Virus record (IMG/VR): IMGVR_UViG_3300027741_000028 | Length of the DNA stretch: 64,000 nucleotides | DNA from: an uncultured virus (IMG/VR IMGVR_UViG_3300027741_000028) | Lineage: Duplodnaviria; Heunggongvirae; Uroviricota; Caudoviricetes | Strand: one strand, 5' to 3' | Part shown: positions 29,733 to 38,645 of the stretch, one piece after another | Layout: each line of letters starts with the position of its first letter | Position numbering within the stretch: position 1 is the first letter of the stretch | Notes under the pieces: generated by a model | What the model was told of the DNA's origin: nothing | The model's input: only the letters and a program-made list of their open reading frames with translations | Databases searched by the model: none | Made by a program: the position numbers and the translations under genes

Positions 29733-30563
29733 ATGGATCCGTTCACACTCTTTGCCTTGGCCAACGGTGCAGTTGCCGCTGTCAAAAAAGGTTGTCAGTT
29801 ATACAAAGATATAAAAAGTGCCGCTGGGGATGTTAAAGCAGTCCTCAAGGATTTGGACGACCAGTTCCACAACGCACATCCACCAGGAAAACCAGCATCA
29901 CCAGAAGCCAAGAAACAATTTGTAGAAGAAAAGGCTCGTGTAGTTGAATTGAATAAAAAGAGCAACGATACAACTAACATCTATGCAGAAATTGGTGACT
30001 ATCTTGGTCAATACTATGATAACTATTTTAAGTGTATAGCAGTTTTAGAAGAAGAAGAACGCCGTAGTAAAACAGAAGTTTATACGGGTGGTGCCAGTTT
30101 AGCTAAACGTGCCTTGCAACGTGTTCTAATGAAAAAACAATTGGAACAAATGGGTACAGAACTCCGTGAATTGATGATATATCAATCACCACCAGAACTT
30201 GGTGCATTGTTTACTGAAGTTGAAGAAATGACCAAAGAGTTAGGTGCTCAACAAAAAGTTCTTATTGCTAAACAAATGAAAGAGGAAGAAGTTAAAGCTA
30301 AAAAAAGAGCTGAAAGAATAGAAAAATATAAATTAGAATTTGGTTTGTTTGTAGCATTTATTGTGTTGTGTTTAGTTATGGCAGGATTTTGGACCTGGTT
30401 ATCTTATAATAAAGATGAAAGATGGCCAGAACTAAAAAACAAAACATACCGAGAAGAATTAGAAAAGCAAAAAAGATATGAAGCTGAGAAGATTAAAAAG
30501 GCTATTCAATATTTGGATGAACAGAACCTTGAAAAAAATAAAGAACTTATAACACCAAAATGA
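29733..30563 (+). CDS. Helical/coiled-coil membrane protein, opposite strand
   Basis: 276-aa ORF, amphipathic MDPFTLFALANGAVAAVKKG start, single TM near C-terminus. Confidence 0.75.
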   Translation: MDPFTLFALANGAVAAVKKGCQLYKDIKSAAGDVKAVLKDLDDQFHNAHPPGKPASPEAKKQFVEEKARVVELNKKSNDTTNIYAEIGDYLGQYYDNYFKCIAVLEEEERRSKTEVYTGGASLAKRALQRVLMKKQLEQMGTELRELMIYQSPPELGALFTEVEEMTKELGAQQKVLIAKQMKEEEVKAKKRAERIEKYKLEFGLFVAFIVLCLVMAGFWTWLSYNKDERWPELKNKTYREELEKQKRYEAEKIKKAIQYLDEQNLEKNKELITPK

Positions 30564-30700
30564 AAAAACAACAATACACATTTTTGGAATGGGTATTTGA
30601 CGTAGTAGGCCTACTGAAGTTTTTTCTATATTATTTGGCTTTTGGAATAATTGTTTCCATTATGATATTATCGTTTGTGTGGTGGTACACAAAACATTAA
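30560..30700 (+). CDS. Small membrane protein (46 aa)
   Basis: MKKQQYTFLEWVFDVVGLLKFFLYYLAFGIIVSIMILSFVWWYTKH; ATGA overlap with upstream gene; below ORF-track cutoff. Confidence 0.6.
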   Translation: MKKQQYTFLEWVFDVVGLLKFFLYYLAFGIIVSIMILSFVWWYTKH

Positions 30701-30701
30701 T

Positions 30702-30774
30702 TGGTAGCGGACCTCGGAGTCGAACCGGAACTGAGGATTATGAGCCCACTGTGATACCATTTCACCAATCCGCA
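30702..30774 (-). tRNA. tRNA-Met(CAT), probably initiator
   Basis: Cloverleaf, CTCATAA loop, 1:72 mismatch, GGG in anticodon stem, encoded CCA. Confidence 0.85.
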
Positions 30775-30777
30775 CTA

Positions 30778-30957
30778 TTATTTTTTATCTCTTAAACGAT
30801 TTTGTTCTAAAATCCTATCAAATTCTTCTTGTTCAGCCTTAGCATCTTCTACTTCTTTAGGTGAAAGTTTACGAAAGATTGCATCATAGTTTTTCGCAAA
30901 CTCTTCCTTAGAAACACTAAAAGGTCTTGGACTTGAACCTTTGCCACCGTCAGACAT
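30778..30957 (-). CDS. Small conserved phage protein (59 aa)
   Basis: MSDGGKGSSPRPFSVSKEEFAKNYDAIFRK...; GGAG SD. Confidence 0.65.
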   Translation of the reverse strand: MSDGGKGSSPRPFSVSKEEFAKNYDAIFRKLSPKEVEDAKAEQEEFDRILEQNRLRDKK

Positions 30958-30958
30958 T

Positions 30959-31204
30959 TTATTCTCCGTAAATGAATACTACATGGTCAATAGTGATAAC
31001 ATAATAATCACCTGACTTCACTGCTGCATTCCAATTCACTAGAACAACATCATCAACTTCTACTTCATCAACCTTAGGACCAATAGATATAACTTTTGCT
31101 TTATCTGGTTCATCAGAACTTTTTAAAATAATTCCTGAATCTGTTTTCTTAGAACCCTCAATACGTTCAATAACGATTCTATTTCCTAATGGTGTAATAT
31201 TCAT
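30959..31204 (-). CDS. groES: Co-chaperonin GroES
   Basis: ITPLGNRIVI..TDSGIIL..KVISIG. Confidence 0.88.
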   Translation of the reverse strand: MNITPLGNRIVIERIEGSKKTDSGIILKSSDEPDKAKVISIGPKVDEVEVDDVVLVNWNAAVKSGDYYVITIDHVVFIYGE

Positions 31205-31220
31205 AATGACCTCAAAAAAA

Positions 31221-31289
31221 TGGAGCGGTTGTCTGCTTTGCTCAGATAATATAAAGGTGGTACCTCAATATCGTACTATTACAAACCGC
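31221..31289 (-). ncRNA. Atypical tRNA-Gly-like RNA
   Basis: GCGGTT/AACCGC acceptor, U discriminator and CCA as in adjacent Gly tRNAs; ACC-centred loop; no GG D-loop or TTC T-loop. Confidence 0.6.
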
Positions 31290-31295
31290 ATATAA

Positions 31296-31369
31296 TGGAG
31301 CGGGATATCAGAATCGAACTGATGACCGAAGATTGGAAATCTGCTGTTTTACCATTAAACTAATCCCGC
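31296..31369 (-). tRNA. tRNA-Gly(TCC)
   Basis: Cloverleaf, TTTCCAA loop, TCCA end. Confidence 0.93.
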
Positions 31370-31389
31370 ATAAATTTGTTGTAGTTACT

Positions 31390-31464
31390 TGGAGCGGGTA
31401 GTGAGAATCGAACTCACAACTAAACCTTGGCAAGGTCTTGTGTTACCACTAGCACCATACCCGC
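31390..31464 (-). tRNA. tRNA-Gly(GCC)
   Basis: Cloverleaf, TTGCCAA loop, TCCA end. Confidence 0.93.
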
Positions 31465-31475
31465 ATCATGCGTAT

Positions 31476-31504
31476 ATTATATAGGCTTCTTTATAAGAAG
31501 TCAA
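31476..31504 (-). promoter_or_regulatory. Sigma70-type promoter directly upstream of the Gly tRNAs
   Basis: TTGACT-N17-TATAAT. Confidence 0.75.
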
Positions 31505-31515
31505 GCATTATTTTT

Positions 31516-31599
31516 TGGTACGAGTAGCCGGAGTCGAACCGGCACACCATAAGCGGCAGATTTTAAGTCTGCTGGGTCTACCAATTCCCCCATACTCGC
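31516..31599 (-). tRNA. tRNA-Leu(TAA)
   Basis: Cloverleaf with variable arm, CTTAAAA loop. Confidence 0.93.
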
Positions 31600-31600
31600 A

Positions 31601-32182
31601 TCACATGGCAGGTCCGTTTCCATTTTTGAAACCAACCTCACCACCTTCTTCTTTGATTCGTTTAATAACATCTTCAAAAAGAATCGGTCTGAAATCTGTT
31701 TGTTCAACACAAACACAATGGTATCTGTTATCAATACCCATTGGTTTCTTATTAAACCCACGAACCTGAACACGATTGGCGTGAAGGTGTCCATGAATGT
31801 TAACACCAAAACGACCAAGACTTTCCTCATGAATGGGAATATGAGACAGAATCATTCCGTTCATTACATGATAAGCACGTAGCTCACGAAAGTGTTGCCT
31901 ATATTCATCATCACGGAAGATATCATGGTTACCACGAATCAGAACTTTATCACCGTTAAGTCTATGCATAATGCTAAGTGCTTTGCGGTTGATAACAACA
32001 TCACCAAGATGATATACTTTATCATTTGGCCTGACTGTTTCGTTCCATCGCTTTACCATTTCTTCATCCATATCATCAGGATTGTCCCATGGCCTAAGCT
32101 TCGTCACACCGTCATCACGGAGAAATCTACACACACCAGCGTGACCAAAATGTGTGTCACTTGTAAGAAATACTGATGGCAT
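31601..32182 (-). CDS. Calcineurin-like metallophosphoesterase
   Basis: SDTHFGH, LGD, RGNHD, SHIP, HGHLH. Confidence 0.92.
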   Translation of the reverse strand: MPSVFLTSDTHFGHAGVCRFLRDDGVTKLRPWDNPDDMDEEMVKRWNETVRPNDKVYHLGDVVINRKALSIMHRLNGDKVLIRGNHDIFRDDEYRQHFRELRAYHVMNGMILSHIPIHEESLGRFGVNIHGHLHANRVQVRGFNKKPMGIDNRYHCVCVEQTDFRPILFEDVIKRIKEEGGEVGFKNGNGPAM

Positions 32183-32200
32183 AATAAACTCCTAAAAAAA

Positions 32201-32275
32201 TGGTCCGGCGTGCAGGAATCGAACCCACATTAAAAGGGTAGAAGCCTTCTGTATTATCCATTATACTAACGCCAG
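32201..32275 (-). tRNA. tRNA-Arg(TCT)
   Basis: Cloverleaf, CTTCTAC loop, CCA. Confidence 0.92.
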
Positions 32276-32281
32276 AATGTT

Positions 32282-32358
32282 TGGTGCCCCAGAGGAGACT
32301 CGAACTCCTAAAATTTTGCTTCTAAGGCAAACACGTATACCAATTCCGTCACCGGGGC
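32282..32358 (-). tRNA. tRNA-Leu(TAG), short variable loop
   Basis: Cloverleaf, CTTAGAA loop, CCA. Confidence 0.9.
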
Positions 32359-32436
32359 AAATAAATACTTATATGACAATACCTTACTCACAACAATCTA
32401 CAGTTGATATTTTATATCGTTTATTCTCAAATGAGG

Positions 32437-32465
32437 AGTATAAAACACGTTCTTCTTATTGTCAA
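32437..32465 (-). promoter_or_regulatory. Sigma70-type promoter inside tRNA array
   Basis: TTGACA-N17-TATACT. Confidence 0.7.
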
Positions 32466-32539
32466 CCAGCCGAGTTTGTTTTATCTGATATTCCTAAAAC
32501 AAATCCACCTAAAAAAGATGAATTTGTTTTAACAACATA

Positions 32540-32615
32540 TGGTGCCAATAGTAAGAGTTGAACTTACGACACATAGATTTTCAGTCTACTGCTCTACCAC
32601 CTGAGCTATATCGGC
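32540..32615 (-). tRNA. tRNA-Phe(GAA)
   Basis: Cloverleaf, CTGAAAA loop. Confidence 0.93.
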
Positions 32616-32619
32616 ATAA

Positions 32620-32694
32620 TGGTACCTTGTGACAGGATCGAACTGCCGACCTTCGCTGTGTAAAAGCGCTACTCTACCGCTGAGTTAACAAGGC
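32620..32694 (-). tRNA. tRNA-Val(TAC)
   Basis: Cloverleaf, TTTACAC loop. Confidence 0.93.
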
Positions 32695-32700
32695 ATAAAT

Positions 32701-32775
32701 TGGGGAGAAATACCAGGATCGAACTGGTGATAACGGAATCACAACCCGTGGTTTTACCACTAAACTAATTTCTCC
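32701..32775 (-). tRNA. tRNA-His(GTG)
   Basis: Cloverleaf, TTGTGAT loop, G-1:C73 pair. Confidence 0.93.
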
Positions 32776-32780
32776 ATAGA

Positions 32781-33164
32781 TTAAGCAATTAATCTTTTTT
32801 TCTTGGCTTCTTCTGCCACAGATTCAAACAAAGAAATATCAGCACGAACTTTTTGTGCATCAACTTCTACATCTGGATTATAATCTTTGAAATTGTCACC
32901 GTGACCAATTTTAATGTGACATTCTTTTTCTTCATCCATACAAAGTGTAATTAGATTATTCATATCTAATTCATGTTCAGGAAAAAGATGAAATGGTTTT
33001 TTGTGATGTACATTTAGATTCTTTGAAGAACCACATGATTCACAAACGGGATGAAATTTTAAATGTAATTTCTGTACACCTGGCCACTTTGGACTTCTTT
33101 CTATACCGTGACCAACTGCTACATCTCTGTTAGCAGTTTTTGCTAAATTAGGTTTTCTTGCCAT
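32781..33164 (-). CDS. HNH endonuclease-family protein
   Basis: CESCG, NVHHKKP, NLITLC..CH...GH. Confidence 0.85.
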   Translation of the reverse strand: MARKPNLAKTANRDVAVGHGIERSPKWPGVQKLHLKFHPVCESCGSSKNLNVHHKKPFHLFPEHELDMNNLITLCMDEEKECHIKIGHGDNFKDYNPDVEVDAQKVRADISLFESVAEEAKKKRLIA

Positions 33165-33200
33165 TGTAATCTCCTAGGGGTTAAACCCCTATGTAGGAGA

Positions 33201-33683
33201 TTATACGGCTTCTTGTTCTGCCAGAATTCTTTTCAATCTGTCAGCACAGAAACTTGCAGCAGGTGCATCTGGTTTAACCATTGGTGTCATGTTACAGGTA
33301 CCTTTGATATAACCAATTGCTTGCTGTACAACACAAGAACTTCCGAATTCATCTGATTTGTTTAAGTCCAAATGAACTTCAACATGAAAATCTTCTAATA
33401 CATCGGCCAATTCTTGGAACAAATCTGATACCTTGTAAACTTCGGTCATCAGTCTCATAGCAGGTTTACTTTTCTTGTGGTCATAATCTAATTCACGGTC
33501 AACGAAACCGAAAATTTTACAACCGTGACGGCCATCAATATGAACTACGACAGCCAATGCATAATCAGCATACCAAACACCATTAATTCTGATTCTTTCA
33601 GAATCGGCACCAAGGTACACTTTGGTTTCTGGTCCTTGACTTGCAAGGAATTCTTTTACTTCCTGTATGTCGAACTTTTTCAT
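33201..33683 (-). CDS. RNase H-like YkuK-family protein
   Basis: VYLGADS, RLMTEV, EVHLDLN, AASFCAD; start at MKKFD (longer ORF overlaps tRNA-Trp). Confidence 0.8.
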   Translation of the reverse strand: MKKFDIQEVKEFLASQGPETKVYLGADSERIRINGVWYADYALAVVVHIDGRHGCKIFGFVDRELDYDHKKSKPAMRLMTEVYKVSDLFQELADVLEDFHVEVHLDLNKSDEFGSSCVVQQAIGYIKGTCNMTPMVKPDAPAASFCADRLKRILAEQEAV

Positions 33684-33704
33684 ATTAATCACCTTATATA
33701 AAAT

Positions 33705-33778
33705 TGGCATCCCGATAGGGACTTGAACCCCAACCAACAGTTTTGGAGACTGCTATGCTGCCATTACACCATCGAGAT
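33705..33778 (-). tRNA. tRNA-Trp(CCA)
   Basis: Cloverleaf, CTCCAAA loop. Confidence 0.92.
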
Positions 33779-33781
33779 ATT

Positions 33782-33856
33782 TGGTCCTCTCGAAAGGAAT
33801 CGAACCTTACGTCTACCGCTTATCAAGCGGGTGCTCTACCATTGAGCTACAAGAGG
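33782..33856 (-). tRNA. tRNA-Ile(GAT)
   Basis: Cloverleaf, TTGATAA loop. Confidence 0.92.
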
Positions 33857-33862
33857 TATTTA

Positions 33863-33938
33863 TGGAGGGTCTTGAGGGATTCAAACCCCCGACCTCTTGG
33901 TTCGTAGCCAAGAGCTCTGTTCACTGAGCTAAAGACCC
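33863..33938 (-). tRNA. tRNA-Arg(ACG)
   Basis: Cloverleaf, CTACGAA loop. Confidence 0.92.
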
Positions 33939-33942
33939 ATAT

Positions 33943-34018
33943 TGGTGGTGATGGAGGGAACCGAGCCCCCAACCTTCTCCGTATGAAGGAGTTGCTCTGC
34001 CGGTTGAGCTACATCACC
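33943..34018 (-). tRNA. tRNA-Met(CAT), probably elongator
   Basis: Cloverleaf, TTCATAC loop, fully paired acceptor. Confidence 0.85.
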
Positions 34019-34091
34019 ATATAGAAACACACTAGACGAGGCGACCTCGTGGCCACAAGTTCCTGCTTATCTCTAATGTGTTTTTATATGG
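34017..34091 (-). ncRNA. Stem-enclosed structured spacer RNA A
   Basis: CCATATAAAAACACATTAGA / TCTAGTGTGTTTCTATATGG closing stem enclosing two small hairpins. Confidence 0.55.
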
Positions 34092-34163
34092 TAGAGGCAC
34101 AGAGAATCGAACTCTGATTAATAGGTTAAAAGCCTACTACTTTAGCCGTTAAGTTATACCCCC
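34089..34163 (-). tRNA. tRNA-Lys(TTT) copy 1
   Basis: Cloverleaf, CTTTTAA loop. Confidence 0.92.
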
Positions 34164-34285
34164 AAAGGTATTTGATTTTGTGCTTTACGCAAGGCCTTAT
34201 TAGTCTTACGATGAACACCTGCTTTTCTAAACAATGCCAAGCGAACGAAACAGTTACGTTCCTTGACGGTTATCTTTCGCTTCAT
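34154..34285 (-). CDS. Very basic 43-aa peptide with stop codon inside tRNA-Lys
   Basis: AGGAG SD; MKRKITVKERNCFVRLALFRKAGVHRKTNKALRKAQNQIPLGV*; not in ORF track. Confidence 0.7.
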   Translation of the reverse strand: MKRKITVKERNCFVRLALFRKAGVHRKTNKALRKAQNQIPLGV

Positions 34286-34303
34286 ATACTACTCCTAAAA
34301 AAA

Positions 34304-34377
34304 TGGTGGACCGTGGGAGAATCGAACTCCCAATCTCGACTTGCAAAACCGATGTTATCCCATTTAACTAACAGCCC
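34304..34377 (-). tRNA. tRNA-Ala(TGC)
   Basis: Cloverleaf, TTTGCAA loop, G3:U70. Confidence 0.92.
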
Positions 34378-34387
34378 CAAAAAAAAC

Positions 34388-34461
34388 TGGTCTCGGTGGA
34401 GGGAATCGAACCCCCGCCACATGGCCCCAAACCACGAATGATACCATTTCACCACACCGAG
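34388..34461 (-). tRNA. tRNA-Pro(TGG)
   Basis: Cloverleaf, TTTGGGG loop. Confidence 0.92.
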
Positions 34462-34466
34462 AAAAT

Positions 34467-34540
34467 TGGTGCCCCACGACAGAATCGAACTGCCATCAGA
34501 GGATTACAAAACCACTGTAATGCCATTATACTAGTAGGGC
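34467..34540 (-). tRNA. tRNA-Thr(TGT)
   Basis: Cloverleaf, TTTGTAA loop. Confidence 0.92.
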
Positions 34541-34548
34541 TAAATAAA

Positions 34549-34759
34549 ATGCTCTGCGTCCTGCGGCGGTAATTATATCGCATCAATCATCGGACTAGAC
34601 GAATAATCCACGACAACATCACGCACGACCTCCACCCGCTTCCCGACCAGGACCGTTCTCGCACTGCCAGCGGCCTTTCGGTTTAAAGACTACCACCCGT
34701 GAGAGTCACCTCACTTCTATCCTGCGGGTCACAGTATCCGCTAACAAAGCGGAACGGCT
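34549..34759 (-). ncRNA. ~210-nt GC-rich structured RNA of unknown class
   Basis: No ORF-track entry; several helices (CCGCT/AGCGG, GTGAG/CTCAC, GGTGGTAGT/ATTACCGCC, CCGAAAGG) between tRNA-Asn and tRNA-Thr. Confidence 0.65.
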
Positions 34760-34760
34760 T

Positions 34761-34835
34761 TGGCTCCAGAGGCAGGGATCGAACCTACGACCAATTGATT
34801 AACAGTCAACTGCACTACCGCTGTGCTACTCTGGA
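34761..34835 (-). tRNA. tRNA-Asn(GTT)
   Basis: Cloverleaf, CTGTTAA loop. Confidence 0.93.
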
Positions 34836-34842
34836 ATATTCT

Positions 34843-35199
34843 TTATACTAACTCATATTCTAAATCTACTGATTCAGAATAGTAACCGTTTGATTCTCCC
34901 AACCAACGAACATCAACATAACCTTTGCGTGTAGCAAATTTGTAAAATGTCCATGTGCGAGATTCAATGTATTCATTTTCTTTAGGTTCTGGTATTTCAC
35001 CTGATACTTCTTCAGCAATCAAAAGTGGTTCACCTTCTAAATCTGATAAATCGCCTACAACGCTTTCAATGTAAACTGATTCGCAACAATTTTGATAATG
35101 ATAGAATCTGAATAATTCAGTATCATTCTTAAACACCATTTCATAACCATCTTGTGTCACCGATGTGAACACTTTTCCAACCATATCATTTATATTCAT
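34843..35199 (-). CDS. Conserved phage hypothetical protein
   Basis: H.Q.CCESV, WTFYKFAT.KGYVDVRW.GESNGYYSESV; start MNIND with AAGGA SD. Confidence 0.75.
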   Translation of the reverse strand: MNINDMVGKVFTSVTQDGYEMVFKNDTELFRFYHYQNCCESVYIESVVGDLSDLEGEPLLIAEEVSGEIPEPKENEYIESRTWTFYKFATRKGYVDVRWLGESNGYYSESVDLEYELV

Positions 35200-35224
35200 T
35201 TTCTTTTCCTTTACAACAATTACT

Positions 35225-35299
35225 TGGCGGTCCCAAGGGGTAACGATCCCCTTCTTTATGCGTGACAGGCATACGTGCGTCCGTGAACACTTTGAGACC
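35225..35299 (-). tRNA. tRNA-Asp(GTC)
   Basis: Cloverleaf, CTGTCAC loop; atypical T-loop ATCGTTA. Confidence 0.88.
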
Positions 35300-35304
35300 A
35301 AATT

Positions 35305-35390
35305 TGGTGGATGCGGTTGGACTTGAACCAACAATGCGCTGAGGCGGAAGATTTACAGTCTCCTGGGGTTACCAATTTTCCTACACATCC
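35305..35390 (-). tRNA. tRNA-Tyr(GTA)
   Basis: Cloverleaf with variable arm, CTGTAAA loop. Confidence 0.92.
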
Positions 35391-35398
35391 ATATTCTT

Positions 35399-35473
35399 TG
35401 GTAGAGGCACAGAGAATCGAACTCTGATTAATAGGTTAAAAGCCTACTACTTTAGCCGTTAAGTTATACCTCC
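35399..35473 (-). tRNA. tRNA-Lys(TTT) copy 2
   Basis: Differs from copy 1 at one base in the acceptor stem. Confidence 0.92.
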
Positions 35474-35477
35474 AAAT

Positions 35478-35723
35478 TACCATACTAAAAGACATTAGGA
35501 TGTTTAACAGAAATAACAGTTTTGATCCTGCCCTACCGTGCCGTCCACGGACTTGTCTGTTAACCACATTACTTGCCAAGTTGTTCCAGCGTGACCACCG
35601 TATCCACTGCATCAAAACAGTTTCGTTTCCATCTTTCATGTAACTTAGTCATTCCAACTCCGTCAGTTGGGGGTGAACTAAATTACCTACTGGCTTGGTA
35701 ACCTAATATGCTTTAGTATGGTA
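35478..35723 (-). ncRNA. Stem-enclosed ~245-nt structured RNA C
   Basis: TACCATACTAAAGCATATTAGG / CCTAATGTCTTTTAGTATGGTA closing stem; internal CCAACT/AGTTGG and AACTGTTTTGAT/ATCAAAACTGTT helices. Confidence 0.6.
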
Positions 35724-35793
35724 CACCGTACCAGAATCGAACTGGTCTTTCCGCCTTGAAAGGGCAGCGTCCTAACCGATAGACGAACGGTGC
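35719..35793 (-). tRNA. tRNA-Glu(TTC)
   Basis: Cloverleaf, CTTTCAA loop. Confidence 0.93.
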
Positions 35794-35798
35794 AAATA

Positions 35799-35822
35799 AC
35801 TACAACAAATTTTTAAAGAACA
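35799..35822 (-). promoter_or_regulatory. boxA-like antitermination element (copy 1)
   Basis: TGTTCTTTAAAAATTTGTTGTAGT resembles rrn boxA TGCTCTTTAACAATTT; repeated at 36422-36445. Confidence 0.75.
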
Positions 35823-35929
35823 GTGGCTGAGGCACAGCCTCATTTAATGTTTCCTGCTTAACTTTTTGCTATTGCTAGCGTGTCTCGCTTTTTGAAACAA
35901 CCTCAATTGATTTCTCAACCGATGAAAGA

Positions 35930-35981
35930 AGTATAACACAACCACATCTTTTGTCAACCATCATGTTGTATTTCAACAACT
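35930..35981 (-). promoter_or_regulatory. Sigma70 promoter with upstream palindrome
   Basis: TTGACA-N16-TATACT; GTTGT-N6-ACAAC palindrome starting 6 bp upstream of -35. Confidence 0.75.
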
Positions 35982-35996
35982 AATACTTTCGTATTA

Positions 35997-36072
35997 TGGA
36001 GTAGGTGGCAGGAGTCGAACCTGCATAAAACGGGGTTGCAATCCGTTCCCTAACCATTCGGGTCACACCTAC
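35997..36072 (-). tRNA. tRNA-Cys(GCA)
   Basis: Cloverleaf, TTGCAAC loop, U73. Confidence 0.92.
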
Positions 36073-36077
36073 ACATT

Positions 36078-36166
36078 TGGCGGAGACTGTGGGAATCGAA
36101 CCCACTCACCGTATCACTACGATGACAGATTAGCAATCTGCTGCATTACCATCCTGCCCAATCTCC
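36078..36166 (-). tRNA. tRNA-Ser(GCT)
   Basis: Long variable arm, TTGCTAA loop, G73. Confidence 0.92.
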
Positions 36167-36171
36167 AAATT

Positions 36172-36263
36172 TGGCGGAAGACGGAGGAGTCGAACCCCAT
36201 CCCATTTCTGAGAACCCAGTTTTCAAGGCTGGTCGCAGTACCAACACCGCTGCATCATCTTCC
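36172..36263 (-). tRNA. tRNA-Ser(TGA), possible 8/4 fold
   Basis: CTTGAAA loop, long variable arm, GGAAGATG/CGTCTTCC 8-bp acceptor. Confidence 0.85.
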
Positions 36264-36346
36264 ATATAGAAACACACTAGGCACCCTTACTAAGTGCTGT
36301 TAGCTATCTCTAAGAATAACTGAACCTAAAGTGTGCTTTTATATGG
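36262..36346 (-). ncRNA. Stem-enclosed structured spacer RNA B
   Basis: CCATATAAAAGCACACTTTAGG / CCTAGTGTGTTTCTATATGG closing stem, homologous to element A, two internal hairpins. Confidence 0.55.
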
Positions 36347-36417
36347 CTGGGGTACCTTGAATCGAACAAGGACCTACGGATTCAAAGTCCGCAGCACTAC
36401 CACTATGCTATACCCCA
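36344..36417 (-). tRNA. tRNA-Gln(TTG)
   Basis: Cloverleaf, CTTTGAA loop. Confidence 0.93.
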
Positions 36418-36421
36418 ATAA

Positions 36422-36445
36422 ACTACAACAAATTTTTAAAGAACA
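36422..36445 (-). promoter_or_regulatory. boxA-like antitermination element (copy 2)
   Basis: TGTTCTTTAAAAATTTGTTGTAGT just downstream of promoter, before first tRNA. Confidence 0.75.
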
Positions 36446-36451
36446 AACAAG

Positions 36452-36504
36452 AGTATAGAATAAATCTACCATCTTGTCAAGTTGGTTGTTGTGAAATGAC
36501 AACA
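36452..36504 (-). promoter_or_regulatory. Sigma70 promoter with upstream palindrome
   Basis: TTGACA-N17-TATACT; TGTTGT-N6-ACAACA 6 bp upstream of -35. Confidence 0.78.
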
Positions 36505-36506
36505 CC

Positions 36507-36545
36507 AAAACAAAAAACCCCTAGATTTTTAGGCCTAGGGGTTTT
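36507..36545 (-). terminator. Intrinsic terminator (attenuator candidate)
   Basis: AAAACCCCTAGG-CCTAAAAA-TCTAGGGGTTTTTTGTTTT. Confidence 0.85.
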
Positions 36546-36569
36546 GTGTTTGTAGTATTTTCTATTACG

Positions 36570-36677
36570 TTATACAAATCCCCTGTCCACCGCCCATGGC
36601 ATATCGGCGCAATTAGGTGTACTAATTGAGCGATACTCTTGCTGAGATTTAAAGGAGTTAAGGTTTAATTTGTTCAT
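36570..36677 (-). CDS. Putative leaderless leader peptide (35 aa)
   Basis: MNKLNLNSFKSQQEYRSISTPNCADMPWAVDRGFV*; ATG 6 nt after TATAAT; last codons complementary to terminator 5' arm. Confidence 0.65.
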   Translation of the reverse strand: MNKLNLNSFKSQQEYRSISTPNCADMPWAVDRGFV

Positions 36678-36683
36678 AGTGTT

Positions 36684-36712
36684 ATTATATAGGAGCTTTT
36701 TGTTTTTGGCAA
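36684..36712 (-). promoter_or_regulatory. Sigma70-type promoter of leader peptide
   Basis: TTGCCA-N17-TATAAT. Confidence 0.75.
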
Positions 36713-36721
36713 GCGGTCATT

Positions 36722-37231
36722 TTAAATATTTTTCCAATATATTGGAACATTTTCTATTGGTGCTGATGGGTCTCTGAATCCTTCAAAGACTTCCCATAGA
36801 TTTTCTTTGATTGCAAAATTGGTTAAAAGTCCTTGTTCTCTGCCCAATGCATCCAATTCCCATGGTTGTAACCAATAATCTATATCATCAGAGTTGACTT
36901 TCTTACCACGCCAACTCGTCATACTATCATTTAATTCTCCGTCCACATATTGTTTTACGTGAACCATTTCATGTGCTAATGTTTCAAATATATTTCGTAC
37001 ACCAATACCTGGATGTATTTCTATTTTAAATTCTCTGGCTTTTTTTAATGTATTATAAGCAACTATTTCAGCAGAACCAAACTCAGTAATCTTATCATTA
37101 AAAATAATTACTGTATAACAGTTGTTACGGATTCTTTTATTTGGTATCAGTTCTTCAGAAAAATATTTTGCGGCACGTTCAATAAATGGTTTAAAATCTT
37201 TGTCAGGACAGTTTACTATTTTTATATTCAT
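36722..37231 (-). CDS. HExxH metallopeptidase-like protein
   Basis: TLAHEMVHVKQY, Y..QPWE.DA. Confidence 0.8.
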   Translation of the reverse strand: MNIKIVNCPDKDFKPFIERAAKYFSEELIPNKRIRNNCYTVIIFNDKITEFGSAEIVAYNTLKKAREFKIEIHPGIGVRNIFETLAHEMVHVKQYVDGELNDSMTSWRGKKVNSDDIDYWLQPWELDALGREQGLLTNFAIKENLWEVFEGFRDPSAPIENVPIYWKNI

Positions 37232-37260
37232 GTAAGTCTCCTGTAAGTTAAATTAAAACA

Positions 37261-37716
37261 TTAGAACTCCTGATTATTTAGTTTTTCCACAGAGACACCA
37301 GCCTTGGCCAGAAAATTGATACCATCATCAGACTTATAAGAGTTCCGATATAAAACACAGTTAATACCACTTTGGTAGATAAGTTTGGCACAGTCCATAC
37401 ATGGAGCATGGGTAACAAACATAGTAGCACCGTCACCAGATTCTGTAGATTTAGCCAACTTGGCAATCGCATTTGTTTCAGCATGAAGTACCTCAGGTCT
37501 AGTTTTTAATTGATAATGTTCATCATTGAATTTATAATCATAAATTTCTTCATATTCACAATTATTGTCCCAACCTGAAGGCATACCATTGTAACCAATA
37601 GATATGATTCTATCTTCTTTGACTACAATGGCACCAACATGAAGTCTACGAGCCGAGGACAATTCTGCAAATGTCTCGGCCACTTTCATATAAGCATCAC
37701 GAAATTTTTGTTTCAT
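37261..37716 (-). CDS. dCMP deaminase
   Basis: VGAIVVK, GYNG, HAETNAI, PCMDC; start MKQKF. Confidence 0.93.
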   Translation of the reverse strand: MKQKFRDAYMKVAETFAELSSARRLHVGAIVVKEDRIISIGYNGMPSGWDNNCEYEEIYDYKFNDEHYQLKTRPEVLHAETNAIAKLAKSTESGDGATMFVTHAPCMDCAKLIYQSGINCVLYRNSYKSDDGINFLAKAGVSVEKLNNQEF

Positions 37717-37722
37717 ATTATT

Positions 37723-37797
37723 TGGTGCCCACAGAGAGAATTGAACTCCCACTCAAGCGATTATGAGTCGCCTGCTTTACCATTAAGCTATATGGGC
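37723..37797 (-). tRNA. tRNA-Ile2(CAT, lysidine type) likely
   Basis: GCAGGCGACTCATAATCGCTTG anticodon arm as in bacterial tRNA-Ile2. Confidence 0.82.
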
Positions 37798-37800
37798 AAA

Positions 37801-37983
37801 TTATTTGACATACTCCAAAGAATCTTTACGCATTAATTTTGGCGTATCACGAATACCAATGTTCTTGATTACATAAACAAATTGCACACCATCAATTTCT
37901 TTGGTTTCTGGTCCGCAAACGAAATAAGTTTCATGTGTGGTTTTCACACGGACTTTTTTGATAAATGGTTTTTCTGTTTTCAT
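37801..37983 (-). CDS. Small hypothetical protein, probably leaderless
   Basis: MKTEKPF...EIDGVQF...LMRKDSLEYVK; ATG 7 nt after TATAAT. Confidence 0.65.
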   Translation of the reverse strand: MKTEKPFIKKVRVKTTHETYFVCGPETKEIDGVQFVYVIKNIGIRDTPKLMRKDSLEYVK

Positions 37984-37990
37984 AGTGAGT

Positions 37991-38030
37991 ATTATATAGG
38001 CAAAAAAAGGGGTTGTCAAGCAACCCCTTT
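37991..38030 (-). promoter_or_regulatory. Consensus sigma70 promoter overlapping an intrinsic terminator
   Basis: TTGACA-N17-TATAAT; -35 lies in AAAGGGGTTG-CTTGA-CAACCCCTTTTTTT hairpin. Confidence 0.8.
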
Positions 38031-38034
38031 CGTT

Positions 38035-38193
38035 TTAATAATAACGGTTTTGTAATAACCTGGTATTATATTCAAGCGTCAGTCTTTCAACATCGCCTTC
38101 GTTCTTGGGGTCCCTAGAGGTAATATATGATTCCAAATCATTTCCGTAATTACCACTTATTCGCTTAAAGAAGTTGTTAATTAGTTGAATCAT
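38035..38193 (-). CDS. Small hypothetical protein (52 aa)
   Basis: MIQLINNFFKRISGNYGNDLESYITSRDPKNEGDVERLTLEY...; ATGA-coupled to hsp20. Confidence 0.6.
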   Translation of the reverse strand: MIQLINNFFKRISGNYGNDLESYITSRDPKNEGDVERLTLEYNTRLLQNRYY

Positions 38194-38645
38194 TTGTCAT
38201 CACTCTCCTTGATGGAGATTTTCTTAATGGCGTCTTGTGCTTTGACCATATTTTCTAGCCAAATTTTAAGCATACCATTCATCATCTCTGCATCCTTGAT
38301 TTCTACTTTATCTGCAAGAGTAAAGGTGCGTTCAAACCCACGGTTTGCAATACCTTTGTACAGATAATCTTCAGAATCATCATCTTTAGATGCGGCTTTA
38401 ATTACGAGTTTATTTCCTTCCAAAGTCATCTCAATATCAGACTTAGCAAAACCAGCAACTGCCATCTCAATGACGTACTTGTTTTCTTTTACTTGTTTGA
38501 TATTGTATGGAGGATAGGATGCGGCCTTAGTTGCAGCTGCTGCAGCTTCACGCATAAGTGTTAATGTATCATCAAAACCTACGGTGAACGGTTGGATTTT
38601 GCTCCAACCAAAGTCATTACCAAATACATCTTTAATGTAAGTCAT
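38190..38645 (-). CDS. hsp20: Small heat-shock protein Hsp20 (IbpA-like)
   Basis: SYPPYNI, IEMAVAGF, YLYKGIANRGFERTFTLA, NGMLKI. Confidence 0.95.
   Translation of the reverse strand: MTYIKDVFGNDFGWSKIQPFTVGFDDTLTLMREAAAAATKAASYPPYNIKQVKENKYVIEMAVAGFAKSDIEMTLEGNKLVIKAASKDDDSEDYLYKGIANRGFERTFTLADKVEIKDAEMMNGMLKIWLENMVKAQDAIKKISIKESDDK

What the first reader, a model, noticed from the sequence alone, without database searches (positions are those of the whole stretch)
36507..36712. Candidate pan-codon leader-peptide attenuator in front of the phage tRNA array
Seen in sequence (minus strand): a TTGCCA-N17-TATAAT promoter has an ATG 6 nt after the -10, so the mRNA would be leaderless. It opens a 35-codon ORF (36677-36570, MNKLNLNSFKSQQEYRSISTPNCADMPWAVDRGFV) that uses 19 of 20 amino acids (all but His) and 30 distinct codons, including GC-rich ones (CGC, AGG, GCG, TGC) in an AT-rich genome. 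Its last codons AGGGGATTTGT are complementary (10/11) to ACAAAACCCCT, the 5' arm of a strong terminator ~25 nt after the stop, so antiterminator and terminator are mutually exclusive. The tRNA array follows directly. Established: this is the layout of ribosome-dependent attenuators (trp/his type), but those use runs of a single amino acid. Inference: a ribosome that reaches the stop masks the antiterminator and transcription ends. A stall at almost any codon (starvation, host anticodon nuclease, toxin), or no translation at all, would allow read-through into the tRNA genes. That would make it a general translation-stress sensor raising the phage's own tRNA supply. Caveat: separate consensus promoters lie downstream (36452, 35930, 32437, 31476), so attenuation may only boost expression.
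Basis: partly seen in the sequence, partly recalled or inferred. Interest (0 to 1): 0.92.

Follow-up and report, generated by a model that had tools for sequence, protein, structure and literature searches.

The report
All-amino-acid leader attenuator before phage tRNAs
In front of this T4-like phage's 25-gene tRNA cluster lies a tiny translated test gene that uses almost every amino acid and is wired to a switchable transcription stop, so the phage probably makes more of its own tRNAs when ribosomes read slowly.

Summary
The minus strand holds promoter TTGCCA-N17-TATAAT, an ATG 6 nt later, a 35-codon ORF (19 amino acids, 30 codons), then a 12-bp terminator, a second promoter and the tRNA array. 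The ORF's last 11 nt pair 10/11 with the terminator's 5' flank.

On its own the window is weak: duplex shuffle p=0.045, and 7 of 272 small ORFs are as diverse. Relatives decide it. The unit occurs in 52 of 80 related IMG/VR loci.
- The frame stays open in 26/26 subfamilies (other frames 3/26 and 0/26), and pN/pS is 0.38.
- The ORF end co-varies with the terminator flank (cognate -17.6 vs permuted -13.2 kcal/mol, 0/20000).
- Transcripts cut before the 3' arm fold into the antiterminator in 24/26; full ones fold into the terminator in 24/26.
- 22 of 44 leaders of 30 aa or more hold all 20 amino acids. Short leaders before 4-6-tRNA arrays are enriched in those tRNAs' amino acids.
- In 12 of 48 variants the terminator abuts the first tRNA.

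Best reading (about 0.68): a ribosome-mediated attenuator that senses overall decoding speed. Nothing was shown experimentally. I found no paper on it. This scan has noted similar attenuators in other phage genomes.

The parts
36684..36712 (-). Promoter P1, TTGCCA-N17-TATAAT (sigma-70 early type)
   Evidence: 11/12 match. The same promoter is conserved in relatives.
36570..36677 (-). Leader ORF: 35 codons plus TAA, with the ATG 6 nt after the -10 (probably leaderless)
   Evidence: Homologous ORFs occur in 52 of 80 related loci. The frame is open in 26/26 representatives against 3/26 and 0/26 for the other frames. pN/pS is 0.38.
36601..36636 (-). Hairpin inside the ORF (codons Tyr-Arg ... Asp). 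It may be a pause or timing hairpin; its role is unknown.
   Evidence: -11.9 kcal/mol against shuffles -4.6+-1.9, z -3.85. A hairpin at the same place appears in most relatives, but the statistics are only moderate.
36574..36584 (-). Antiterminator 5' strand (AGGGGATTTGT), the last codons of the ORF
   Evidence: In 42 of 48 variants this strand ends within 6 nt of the stop codon.
36537..36547 (-). Shared strand (ACAAAACCCCT). It pairs either with the ORF end (antiterminator) or with the terminator's 3' arm.
36504..36545 (-). Intrinsic terminator: 12-bp stem, 8-nt loop, T-run
36452..36480 (-). Promoter P2, TTGACA-N17-TATACT, between the terminator and the first tRNA
   Evidence: Present in 32 of 48 variants. 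Two metatranscriptome contigs end at 36445, a weak hint of its start site.
36433..36445 (-). boxA-like motif TGTTCTTTAAAAA at the start of the P2 transcript
   Evidence: Present in 25 of 48 variants. The likeness to rrn boxA is recalled, not tested.
30702..36417 (-). Array of 25 tRNA genes covering all 20 amino acids; the presumed regulated genes

Best explanation
This is a ribosome-mediated (leader-peptide) transcription attenuator placed in front of the phage's tRNA array.

RNA polymerase starts at P1 and a ribosome begins on the 5'-terminal AUG. The last codons of the 35-codon ORF form the 5' strand of an antiterminator. That strand pairs with the sequence just upstream of, and inside, the terminator's 5' arm.
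- If the ribosome keeps up with the polymerase, it sits on or just past this strand near the stop codon when the terminator is transcribed. The terminator then forms and transcription ends.
- If the ribosome lags, because some codon is read slowly or because none has loaded, the free strand captures the terminator's 5' arm first. The polymerase then reads on into the tRNA genes.

The leader contains nearly all 20 amino acids, so its transit time reports the supply of all charged tRNAs. The output is the phage's own full tRNA set.

Shown here by sequence comparison: the ORF, its translation signature, the two alternative folds, their covariation and the amino-acid completeness.
Inferred: that translation controls read-through, and what stress it answers to.
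For: 1. Conservation. The promoter-ORF-terminator unit is in 52 of the 80 loci.

2. Translation signature.
- Frame 0 is open in 26/26 subfamily representatives. Frame +1 is open in 3/26 and frame +2 in 0/26, at a median ORF identity of 0.60.
- Length differences between homologues keep the frame.
- pN/pS is 0.38 over 35 close pairs.
- Starts are leaderless in 20 of 48 variants and preceded by GGAG- or AGAAAG-type SD-like sequences in 20 of 48.

3. Antiterminator.
- The cognate duplex between ORF end and terminator flank averages -17.5 kcal/mol, against -13.1 for non-cognate pairs, in 48 unique variants.
- With 26 representatives the permutation test gives z -7.8, 0 of 20000.
- The U-run length after the G-run matches the A-run length before the C-run: 2, 3, 4 or 5.
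- On a model-fitted alignment 83.2% of cells pair, against 78.2+-0.8 in shuffles (0/500). 7 of 11 pairs change on both sides (11/500). The covariation score is 0.145 against 0.081 (0/500). Slid registers pair 34-67%.

4. Switch. The transcript cut before the 3' arm folds into the antiterminator in 24/26. The full transcript folds into the terminator in 24/26.

5. Geometry. The antiterminator strand ends within 6 nt of the stop in 42/48. The stop-to-stem distance is 22-31 nt in 47/48, median 27.

6. Need for read-through. In 12 of 48 variants the terminator ends 30 nt or less before the first tRNA, with no promoter between.

7. Amino-acid completeness.
- Of 44 leaders of 30 aa or more, 22 have all 20 amino acids and 13 have 19. 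The null is P(20)=0.0015 and P(>=19)=0.019 for random 35-mers.
- Column permutation of 23 representatives: observed 19.35 distinct, permuted 17.72+-0.22 (0/5000). His sits in 10 different columns.

8. Match to the array.
- Residues belonging to the array's tRNA set: L062 15/22 (background 0.27, p=7.6e-5), L066 10/21 (p=0.0046), L059 12/25 (p=0.011).
- L066 lacks both the Trp codon and tRNA-Trp.
- Across 11 complete arrays, amino-acid types in the array against distinct amino acids in the leader give Spearman 0.84, p=0.001.
Against: - No experiment supports it. The metatranscriptome contigs do not cover the leader.
- In 32 of 48 variants, the window included, a consensus promoter follows the terminator. 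The array there does not depend on read-through.
- The window's own antiterminator is among the weakest. It scores -13.4 against -22.0 kcal/mol for the terminator arms and has a central A/A mismatch; shuffle p=0.045.
- pN/pS of 0.38, the invariant Trp (23/23) and the near-invariant Tyr (21/23) would also fit a peptide with a function of its own.
- Codons close to the antiterminator strand cannot report a stall in a static model. In the window these include Trp, Val and Gly.
- The window's leader lacks His although the array has tRNA-His.
- The leaders of L022 (17/30, p=0.52) and L029 (15/30, p=0.23) are not enriched for their arrays' amino acids.
- 24 of 76 assessable relatives have tRNAs after the same gene but no leader.
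- The statistics are not corrected for shared ancestry beyond my choice of one representative per subfamily.
- The alignment used was fitted to the tested structure.
Confidence: 0.68

Rival explanations
1. It is an ordinary small phage gene with its own promoter and terminator that encodes a 21-43 aa peptide with a function of its own. The terminator merely ends that unit, and the tRNAs are made from the downstream promoters.
For: pN/pS is 0.38. Trp is invariant and Tyr-Arg/His nearly so. The window and 31 other variants of 48 have a consensus promoter after the terminator. T4-type genomes are full of small genes (general knowledge).
Against: - It does not explain why the ORF's 3' end co-varies with the terminator flank.
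- It does not explain why 24/26 truncated transcripts fold into that helix.
- It does not explain why the terminator abuts the first tRNA in 12/48.
- It does not explain why a 31-43 aa peptide should hold all 20 amino acids in half of the cases.
- It does not explain why short leaders match their small arrays.
- No Pfam family matches the peptides, and the only PHROG hit is one weak match at E=0.056.
Confidence: 0.14
2. It is a nascent-peptide arrest leader of the TnaC/SecM/Erm type (recalled). The conserved residues (Tyr-Arg ... Trp ... Gly-Phe-Cys-Val) stall the ribosome in response to a ligand or state. The stall, rather than codon supply, decides between terminator and antiterminator.
For: Trp is invariant and the C-terminal part is conserved. 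There is purifying selection on the peptide. The RNA switch is the same as in the main explanation.
Against: Conserved codons coincide with RNA helices (the in-ORF hairpin and the antiterminator strand), which explains much of the conservation. An arrest motif does not predict amino-acid completeness, its compensation across columns, or the match to small arrays.
Confidence: 0.08
3. It is a structured non-coding RNA: a small RNA of about 170 nt from P1 to the terminator, or a protein- or tRNA-binding leader. On this reading the open frame is a by-product.
For: Blocks are conserved at every codon position, and there is a conserved hairpin and long-range helix. The unit has its own promoter and terminator.
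Against: The frame is open in 26/26, against 3/26 and 0/26 for the other frames. Length differences keep the frame. SD-like sequences appear exactly where the leaderless start is lost. pN/pS is below 1. No Rfam family matches, T-box included, at E up to 1.
Confidence: 0.06

Closest known systems
Multivalent leader-peptide attenuators of enterobacterial amino-acid operons (thr, ilvGMEDA, ilvBN; recalled from textbooks, no paper read here)
   Same: A short translated leader ORF, an intrinsic terminator, an antiterminator that shares the terminator's 5' arm, a ribosome position that chooses between them, and more than one amino acid sensed.
   Different: Those leaders use runs of 2-3 amino acids and control biosynthetic enzymes. 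This one has no runs, carries 19-20 different amino acids once or twice each, and sits in front of tRNA genes. There is no sequence likeness to the Rfam leader families. The start is often leaderless.
trp and his leader attenuators (trpL, hisL; recalled)
   Same: The same three-strand logic (antiterminator against terminator), with the stop codon placed so that a finishing ribosome masks the antiterminator strand.
   Different: The classical 1:2 anti-antiterminator is only weakly supported here (z -3.0 over the family, none in the window). Untranslated RNA is therefore predicted to read through rather than to super-attenuate.
pheST (pheM leader) attenuator of phenylalanyl-tRNA synthetase (recalled)
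   Same: A leader-peptide attenuator whose output is a part of the translation apparatus and whose input is charged-tRNA supply.
   Different: It has one amino acid as input and a synthetase as output. Here the input is nearly all amino acids and the output is the tRNAs themselves, a direct feedback loop.
Earlier notes of this scan: codon-matched leader-peptide attenuators in front of tRNA arrays of other phages (AI notes, one marked as checked later)
   Same: The same proposed control: a test ORF written in the amino acids of the downstream tRNAs, followed by a switchable terminator.
   Different: Those are other genomes, with several isotype-sorted blocks each behind its own matched leader. 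Here a single leader carries the whole alphabet before a complete array, in T4-like freshwater phages. It is backed by covariation in 26 subfamilies. No look-alike sequence is in the index.
T-box riboswitches (RF00230)
   Same: A terminator/antiterminator leader that responds to tRNA charging.
   Different: T-boxes bind uncharged tRNA directly and need no ORF. Rfam gives no T-box hit at E up to 1, and this leader is translated.

Membership tests
Leader-peptide (ribosome-mediated) transcription attenuators | A short translated ORF in the 5' leader | tested here: met
   The frame is open in 26/26 representatives, against 3/26 and 0/26. Length differences keep the frame. pN/pS is 0.38. Starts are leaderless or SD-led. 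Translation itself was not observed.
Leader-peptide (ribosome-mediated) transcription attenuators | An intrinsic terminator between the leader ORF and the regulated genes | tested here: met
   Window: 12-bp stem plus T-run. A terminator is present in all 48 unique variants.
Leader-peptide (ribosome-mediated) transcription attenuators | An antiterminator helix that shares a strand with the terminator, so the two folds exclude each other | tested here: met
   0/20000; covariation 0/500; 24/26 and 24/26.
Leader-peptide (ribosome-mediated) transcription attenuators | The stop codon is placed so that a finishing ribosome masks the antiterminator strand but not the terminator | tested here: met
   The strand ends within 6 nt of the stop in 42/48. 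The stop-to-stem distance is 22-31 nt in 47/48. The ribosome footprint size is recalled, not measured.
Leader-peptide (ribosome-mediated) transcription attenuators | Tandem run of codons for the amino acid(s) linked to the operon | tested here: not met
   There are no runs. Instead 19-20 different amino acids occur once or twice each. Small-array relatives are enriched in the array's amino acids.
Leader-peptide (ribosome-mediated) transcription attenuators | An upstream 1:2 (pause / anti-antiterminator) hairpin | tested here: inconclusive
   Pairing of the ORF's 5' part with the antiterminator strand is weak (p=0.002 over the family; window z -0.2). A separate in-ORF hairpin exists, but its role is unknown.
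Leader-peptide (ribosome-mediated) transcription attenuators | Read-through depends on translation of the leader | not testable with these tools
   This needs reporter, in vitro or Ribo-seq/Term-seq data. The RNA contigs gave no cover.
Rfam leader families (Trp, His, Leu, Thr leaders) and T-box | Match to the covariance model | tested here: not met
   cmscan of 30000-38500 at E up to 1 gave no hit in 36500-36720.
Known protein families (Pfam-A, PHROGs) for the peptide | Profile match | tested here: not met
   Five leader peptides had no Pfam hit and only one weak PHROG hit at E=0.056.

The most novel reading that the evidence does not exclude
Phage tRNA arrays are demand-regulated. A pan-amino-acid test ORF times a ribosome against RNA polymerase, and so reads the supply of every charged tRNA at once. 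It opens the complete phage tRNA set when decoding slows, for example through codon-usage mismatch, starvation or host tRNA-cleaving defences. The leader's amino-acid content co-evolves with the tRNA genes it controls: it shrinks to the array's amino acids in 4-6-tRNA arrays, and the Trp codon is lost together with tRNA-Trp.
Probability: 0.45. Interest if true: 0.9.

Novelty: new variant of a known kind. Interest (0 to 1): 0.82.

Why it matters
Why large phages carry tRNA genes, and how these are used, is an open question. Current proposals include codon-usage compensation, replacement of degraded host tRNAs and escape from tRNA-cleaving defences.

A built-in sensor that turns the array up when decoding slows would show that phage tRNAs are supplied on demand. 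It would also give a direct handle for experiments: the leader could serve as a reporter of tRNA sufficiency during infection.

It would extend leader-peptide attenuation, known for amino-acid operons, in two ways. The regulated genes would be the tRNAs themselves, which closes a feedback loop. The leader would survey the whole amino-acid alphabet instead of one or a few residues.

The all-20 design makes a sharp prediction. Omitting any one amino acid or tRNA upstream of the antiterminator strand should raise read-through.

I found no published account in five full-text searches. The library lacks most subscription journals, so older T4 tRNA-operon papers were not seen.

Tried and rejected
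- DNA search of cultured phages found only tRNA look-alikes.
- A protein search with the upstream 169-aa gene found distant homologues in cultured phages. The two I opened, Caulobacter phage Cr30 and Stenotrophomonas phage DLP6, have no annotated tRNA and no array beside that gene. I found no cultured model.
- The window's own assembly is not held. The nearest record, G001, has no match.
- Rfam has no family in the leader.
- RNAalifold on the plain MAFFT alignment predicted no pairs. The helix register shifts with the lengths of the G-run and U-run. I therefore used duplex energies, an anchored count and a covariance-model alignment.
- Public RNA runs are kept only as assembled contigs. Six metatranscriptomes held 6-9% of the words. 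The four that I laid did not cover 36558-36698. That says nothing either way.
- A trp-style 1:2 anti-antiterminator has weak family-level signal and none in the window. I do not claim it.
- The in-ORF hairpin as a polymerase pause signal is my speculation from a recalled pause consensus. It was not tested, and the fold statistics are moderate (z below -2 in 8 of 26 with a crude window).
- Pfam and PHROGs gave nothing for the peptide.
- The scan's earlier notes hold nothing on this genome or on look-alike sequence.
- In the L022 group the variable residues before Tyr-His seem to follow the first tRNAs of the array: TITQ, TTSI or TTPC. There are exceptions, such as Ile without tRNA-Ile in L025 and tRNA-Gln without Gln in L037. 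I treat this as anecdote.

Full report
WHAT IS THERE

On the minus strand a 169-aa gene (37231..36722) ends. It has only a weak, sub-threshold Pfam hit to a metallopeptidase-like family. After it come, in order:
- promoter P1, TTGCCA-N17-TATAAT (36712..36684, 11/12 match);
- an ATG at 36677, six bases after the -10;
- a 35-codon ORF ending in TAA at 36572..36570;
- 24 nt further, a terminator with a 12-bp stem (36545..36514), an 8-nt loop and a T-run;
- a second promoter P2, TTGACA-N17-TATACT (36480..36452);
- tRNA-Gln (36417), which starts an array of 25 tRNA genes covering all 20 amino acids.

The neighbouring ORFs look to me like T4-type genes (my reading of the translations, not tested). 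The DNA recurs in freshwater metagenomes.

The ORF has 19 amino acids (no His) and 30 distinct codons. AGGGGATTTGT (36584..36574) matches the complement of ACAAAACCCCT (36547..36537) in 10 of 11 positions.

THE WINDOW ALONE IS WEAK EVIDENCE

- The duplex scores -13.4 kcal/mol and beats shuffles only at p=0.045.
- 7 of 272 small ORFs of 30-43 aa in the window have 19 or more amino acids. A random 35-mer from the window's proteome has P(>=19)=0.019 and P(20)=0.0015.
- The whole 186-nt leader folds better than shuffles (-52.3 against -37.0+-3.6, z -4.3), but much of that is the terminator.

RELATIVES

Cultured phages gave nothing. IMG/VR gave 582 confirmed relatives of the upstream gene, of which the best 80 were kept.
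- 52 of these 80 carry the same unit between that gene and a tRNA array.
- 4 could not be judged because the contig ends.
- 24 lack it.
- Two further scans with 8-kb flanks added four new variants and complete arrays.

After removing duplicates there are 48 unique variants. I grouped them by eye into 26 subfamilies with one representative each. Median ORF nucleotide identity among the representatives is 0.60, range 0.40-0.80.

THE ORF IS A TRANSLATED FRAME

- It is open in 26/26 representatives. The +1 frame is open in 3/26 and the +2 frame in 0/26, with means of 1.8 and 2.8 stops.
- Homologous leaders are 21-43 codons long and length differences keep the frame.
- Over 35 close pairs pN/pS is 0.38.
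- The start takes two forms. In 19 variants it lies 5-7 nt after a sigma-70 -10. In 1 it lies after a late-type promoter octamer (consensus recalled). In 20 a longer 5' UTR carries a GGAG- or AGAAAG-type SD-like sequence. 8 variants are unclassified, and some of those look like leaderless starts with shorter spacing.
- An SD-like sequence appears where the leaderless start is missing. That is hard to explain unless the frame is translated.

THE RNA SWITCH

The terminator stems differ between subfamilies, and the G-rich/U-rich piece at the end of the ORF follows the sequence of the terminator's 5' flank.
- Duplex energies between the ORF end and its own terminator flank average -17.5 kcal/mol, against -13.1 for other elements' flanks (48 variants).
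- With the 26 representatives no permutation of 20000 reaches the cognate mean (-17.57 against -13.18+-0.56, z -7.8).
- The number of U after the G-run equals the number of A/G before the C-run: 2, 3, 4 or 5.
- This register shift defeated RNAalifold on a plain MAFFT alignment.
- I built a covariance model with the proposed helix and re-aligned 45 matches. The pair count on that alignment gave:
  - 83.2% of cells paired, against 78.2+-0.8 in shuffles (0/500);
  - 7 of 11 pairs with changes on both sides (11/500);
  - 21 such cells (0/500);
  - covariation score 0.145 against 0.081 (0/500);
  - slid registers pairing 34-67%.
  This alignment is fitted to the structure, so it leans towards it. 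The energy tests do not share that bias.
- Folding shows a two-state device. The transcript up to the point where the 3' arm is not yet made folds into the antiterminator in 24/26. The complete transcript folds into the terminator in 24/26.

GEOMETRY

- The antiterminator strand ends within 6 nt of the stop codon in 42/48.
- The distance from stop to terminator stem is 22-31 nt in 47/48, median 27.
- With the usual ribosome footprint (recalled), a ribosome at or near the stop would cover or isolate the antiterminator strand and leave the terminator free.
- In 12 of 48 variants the terminator ends 30 nt or less before the first tRNA, with no room for a promoter. The first tRNAs there can be made only by reading through it.
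- In 32 of 48 variants, the window included, P2 follows the terminator. There the device can only add to a constitutive supply.

THE 'PAN-CODON' IDEA

- Of 44 leaders of 30 aa or more (redundant set), 22 contain all 20 amino acids, 13 contain 19, 4 contain 18, 3 contain 17 and 2 contain 16.
- Among 23 representatives the mean is 19.35 distinct amino acids. For this test I left out the three short leaders L059, L100 and L062. Shuffling residues within alignment columns gives 17.72+-0.22 (0/5000). Eleven representatives have all 20, against 1.36 expected.
- Rare residues move around. His occupies 10 different columns in 22 of 23 sequences. An amino acid lost at one position tends to be present at another. 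That is what selection for completeness predicts.
- Such selection would also produce pN/pS below 1, because most residues are the only copy of their kind.

MATCH TO THE ARRAY

- Relatives with small arrays have short leaders enriched in the amino acids of their tRNAs.

| Locus | tRNAs in the array | Leader residues in that set | Background | p |
|---|---|---|---|---|
| L062 | Leu, Trp, Pro, Thr, Asn, Met | 15 of 22 | 0.27 | 7.6e-5 |
| L066 | Leu, Pro, Thr, Met | 10 of 21 | 0.20 | 0.0046 |
| L059 | Trp, Pro, Asn, Thr, Met, Gly | 12 of 25 | 0.25 | 0.011 |

- L066 has lost the Trp codon by an in-frame deletion and also lacks tRNA-Trp.
- The middle-sized arrays do not all follow: L025 p=0.043, L029 p=0.23, L022 p=0.52.
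- Over 11 arrays not cut by a contig end, the number of amino-acid types in the array correlates with the number in the leader (Spearman 0.84, p=0.001). This covers only about five independent lineages.

MECHANISM I COMMIT TO

I put about 0.68 on a ribosome-mediated attenuator that works as a race between the first ribosome and RNA polymerase.
- Fast decoding puts the ribosome on the antiterminator strand in time, and transcription stops.
- Slow decoding at any codon far enough upstream, or no ribosome at all, lets the strand seize the terminator's 5' arm. P1 transcription then runs into the tRNA genes.
- I find only weak evidence for a trp-style 1:2 helix.
- A conserved hairpin inside the ORF may time the race. 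Its role is open.

What triggers the switch in nature (codon mismatch with the host, starvation or host tRNA nucleases) is inference.

RIVALS

- A plain small gene (0.14).
- A nascent-peptide arrest leader (0.08).
- A non-coding RNA (0.06).
Each leaves several of the observations above unexplained; see the Rival explanations section.

COMPARISON WITH WHAT IS KNOWN

It works like the leader-peptide attenuators of amino-acid operons, most like the multivalent ones.

Features it meets: a translated leader, an intrinsic terminator, a shared-strand antiterminator and the placement of the stop codon.

Features it does not meet:
- It has no codon runs.
- It controls tRNA genes, not enzymes.
- It matches no Rfam leader or T-box model.
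- It is often leaderless.

Five full-text searches found no account of leader-peptide attenuation of tRNA genes (I saw listings and abstracts only, and older subscription papers on the T4 tRNA operon are outside the library).

This scan has already noted 'leader-peptide attenuators gating phage tRNA arrays' in other genomes (read after my own analysis). So the kind is not new to the scan. This family is a distinct case with an all-amino-acid leader, and it rests on broad comparative support.

Noticed in passing
window 36433-36445 and 35810-35822 (minus strand); relatives L003-L145: The 13-nt motif TGTTCTTTAAAAA, followed by a GT-rich stretch, sits right after P2. It also sits right after the internal array promoter (35957-35930), there preceded by a small hairpin. 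It occurs in 25 of 48 relatives between P2 and tRNA-Gln. It resembles the rrn boxA antitermination element as I recall it. That would suggest Nus-type processive antitermination on the phage tRNA array.
   Followed up: partly
window 36176-36263 (minus strand): Rfam gives a sub-threshold tRNA-Sec-like hit (36.7 bits, gathering score 47) between tRNA-Gln and tRNA-Ser that ARAGORN did not call. Relatives have two tRNA-Ser genes at this place, so it is probably a second long-arm tRNA or a decayed one.
   Followed up: no
window 34843-35220 (minus strand): A protein-coding ORF (about 110 aa from its internal ATG, MNINDMVGKVF...) is embedded inside the tRNA array, between tRNA-Asp and tRNA-Asn.
   Followed up: no
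L042, L046-L048, L065, L069, L072-L074, L078, L080 (just after the 169-aa gene): Relatives without the leader have something else there: a roughly 75-nt tRNA-like structured RNA (acceptor-like ends, 3' ...CCGCTCCA), followed by a small very basic protein (MAVSKSKKKNPMLTKNGKP...) directly upstream of tRNA-Thr. In L062 and L066 that basic protein precedes the short leader.
   Followed up: no
L054, L055 (3476-3590): The 169-aa gene is extended to 178 aa. Its own 3' end carries a piece complementary to the flank of the terminator that follows (duplex -9.1 kcal/mol). The antiterminator strand seems to have been absorbed into the upstream gene.
   Followed up: no
L011, L012, L015, L019, L024 (about 210-230 nt upstream of the tRNA-Met that lies upstream of the dCMP deaminase gene): My screen also picked up a second small ORF (for example MKKLFTSILEAIEAIKQHRSGPGLKGR) that ends at a terminator before the isolated tRNA-Met. 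I did not examine it.
   Followed up: no
window 36445 (minus strand): Two metatranscriptome contigs from different studies, with 1 and 0 mismatches over tRNA-Gln and its leader, both end at 36445, 7 nt after P2's -10. This is a weak hint of the P2 transcription start.
   Followed up: partly
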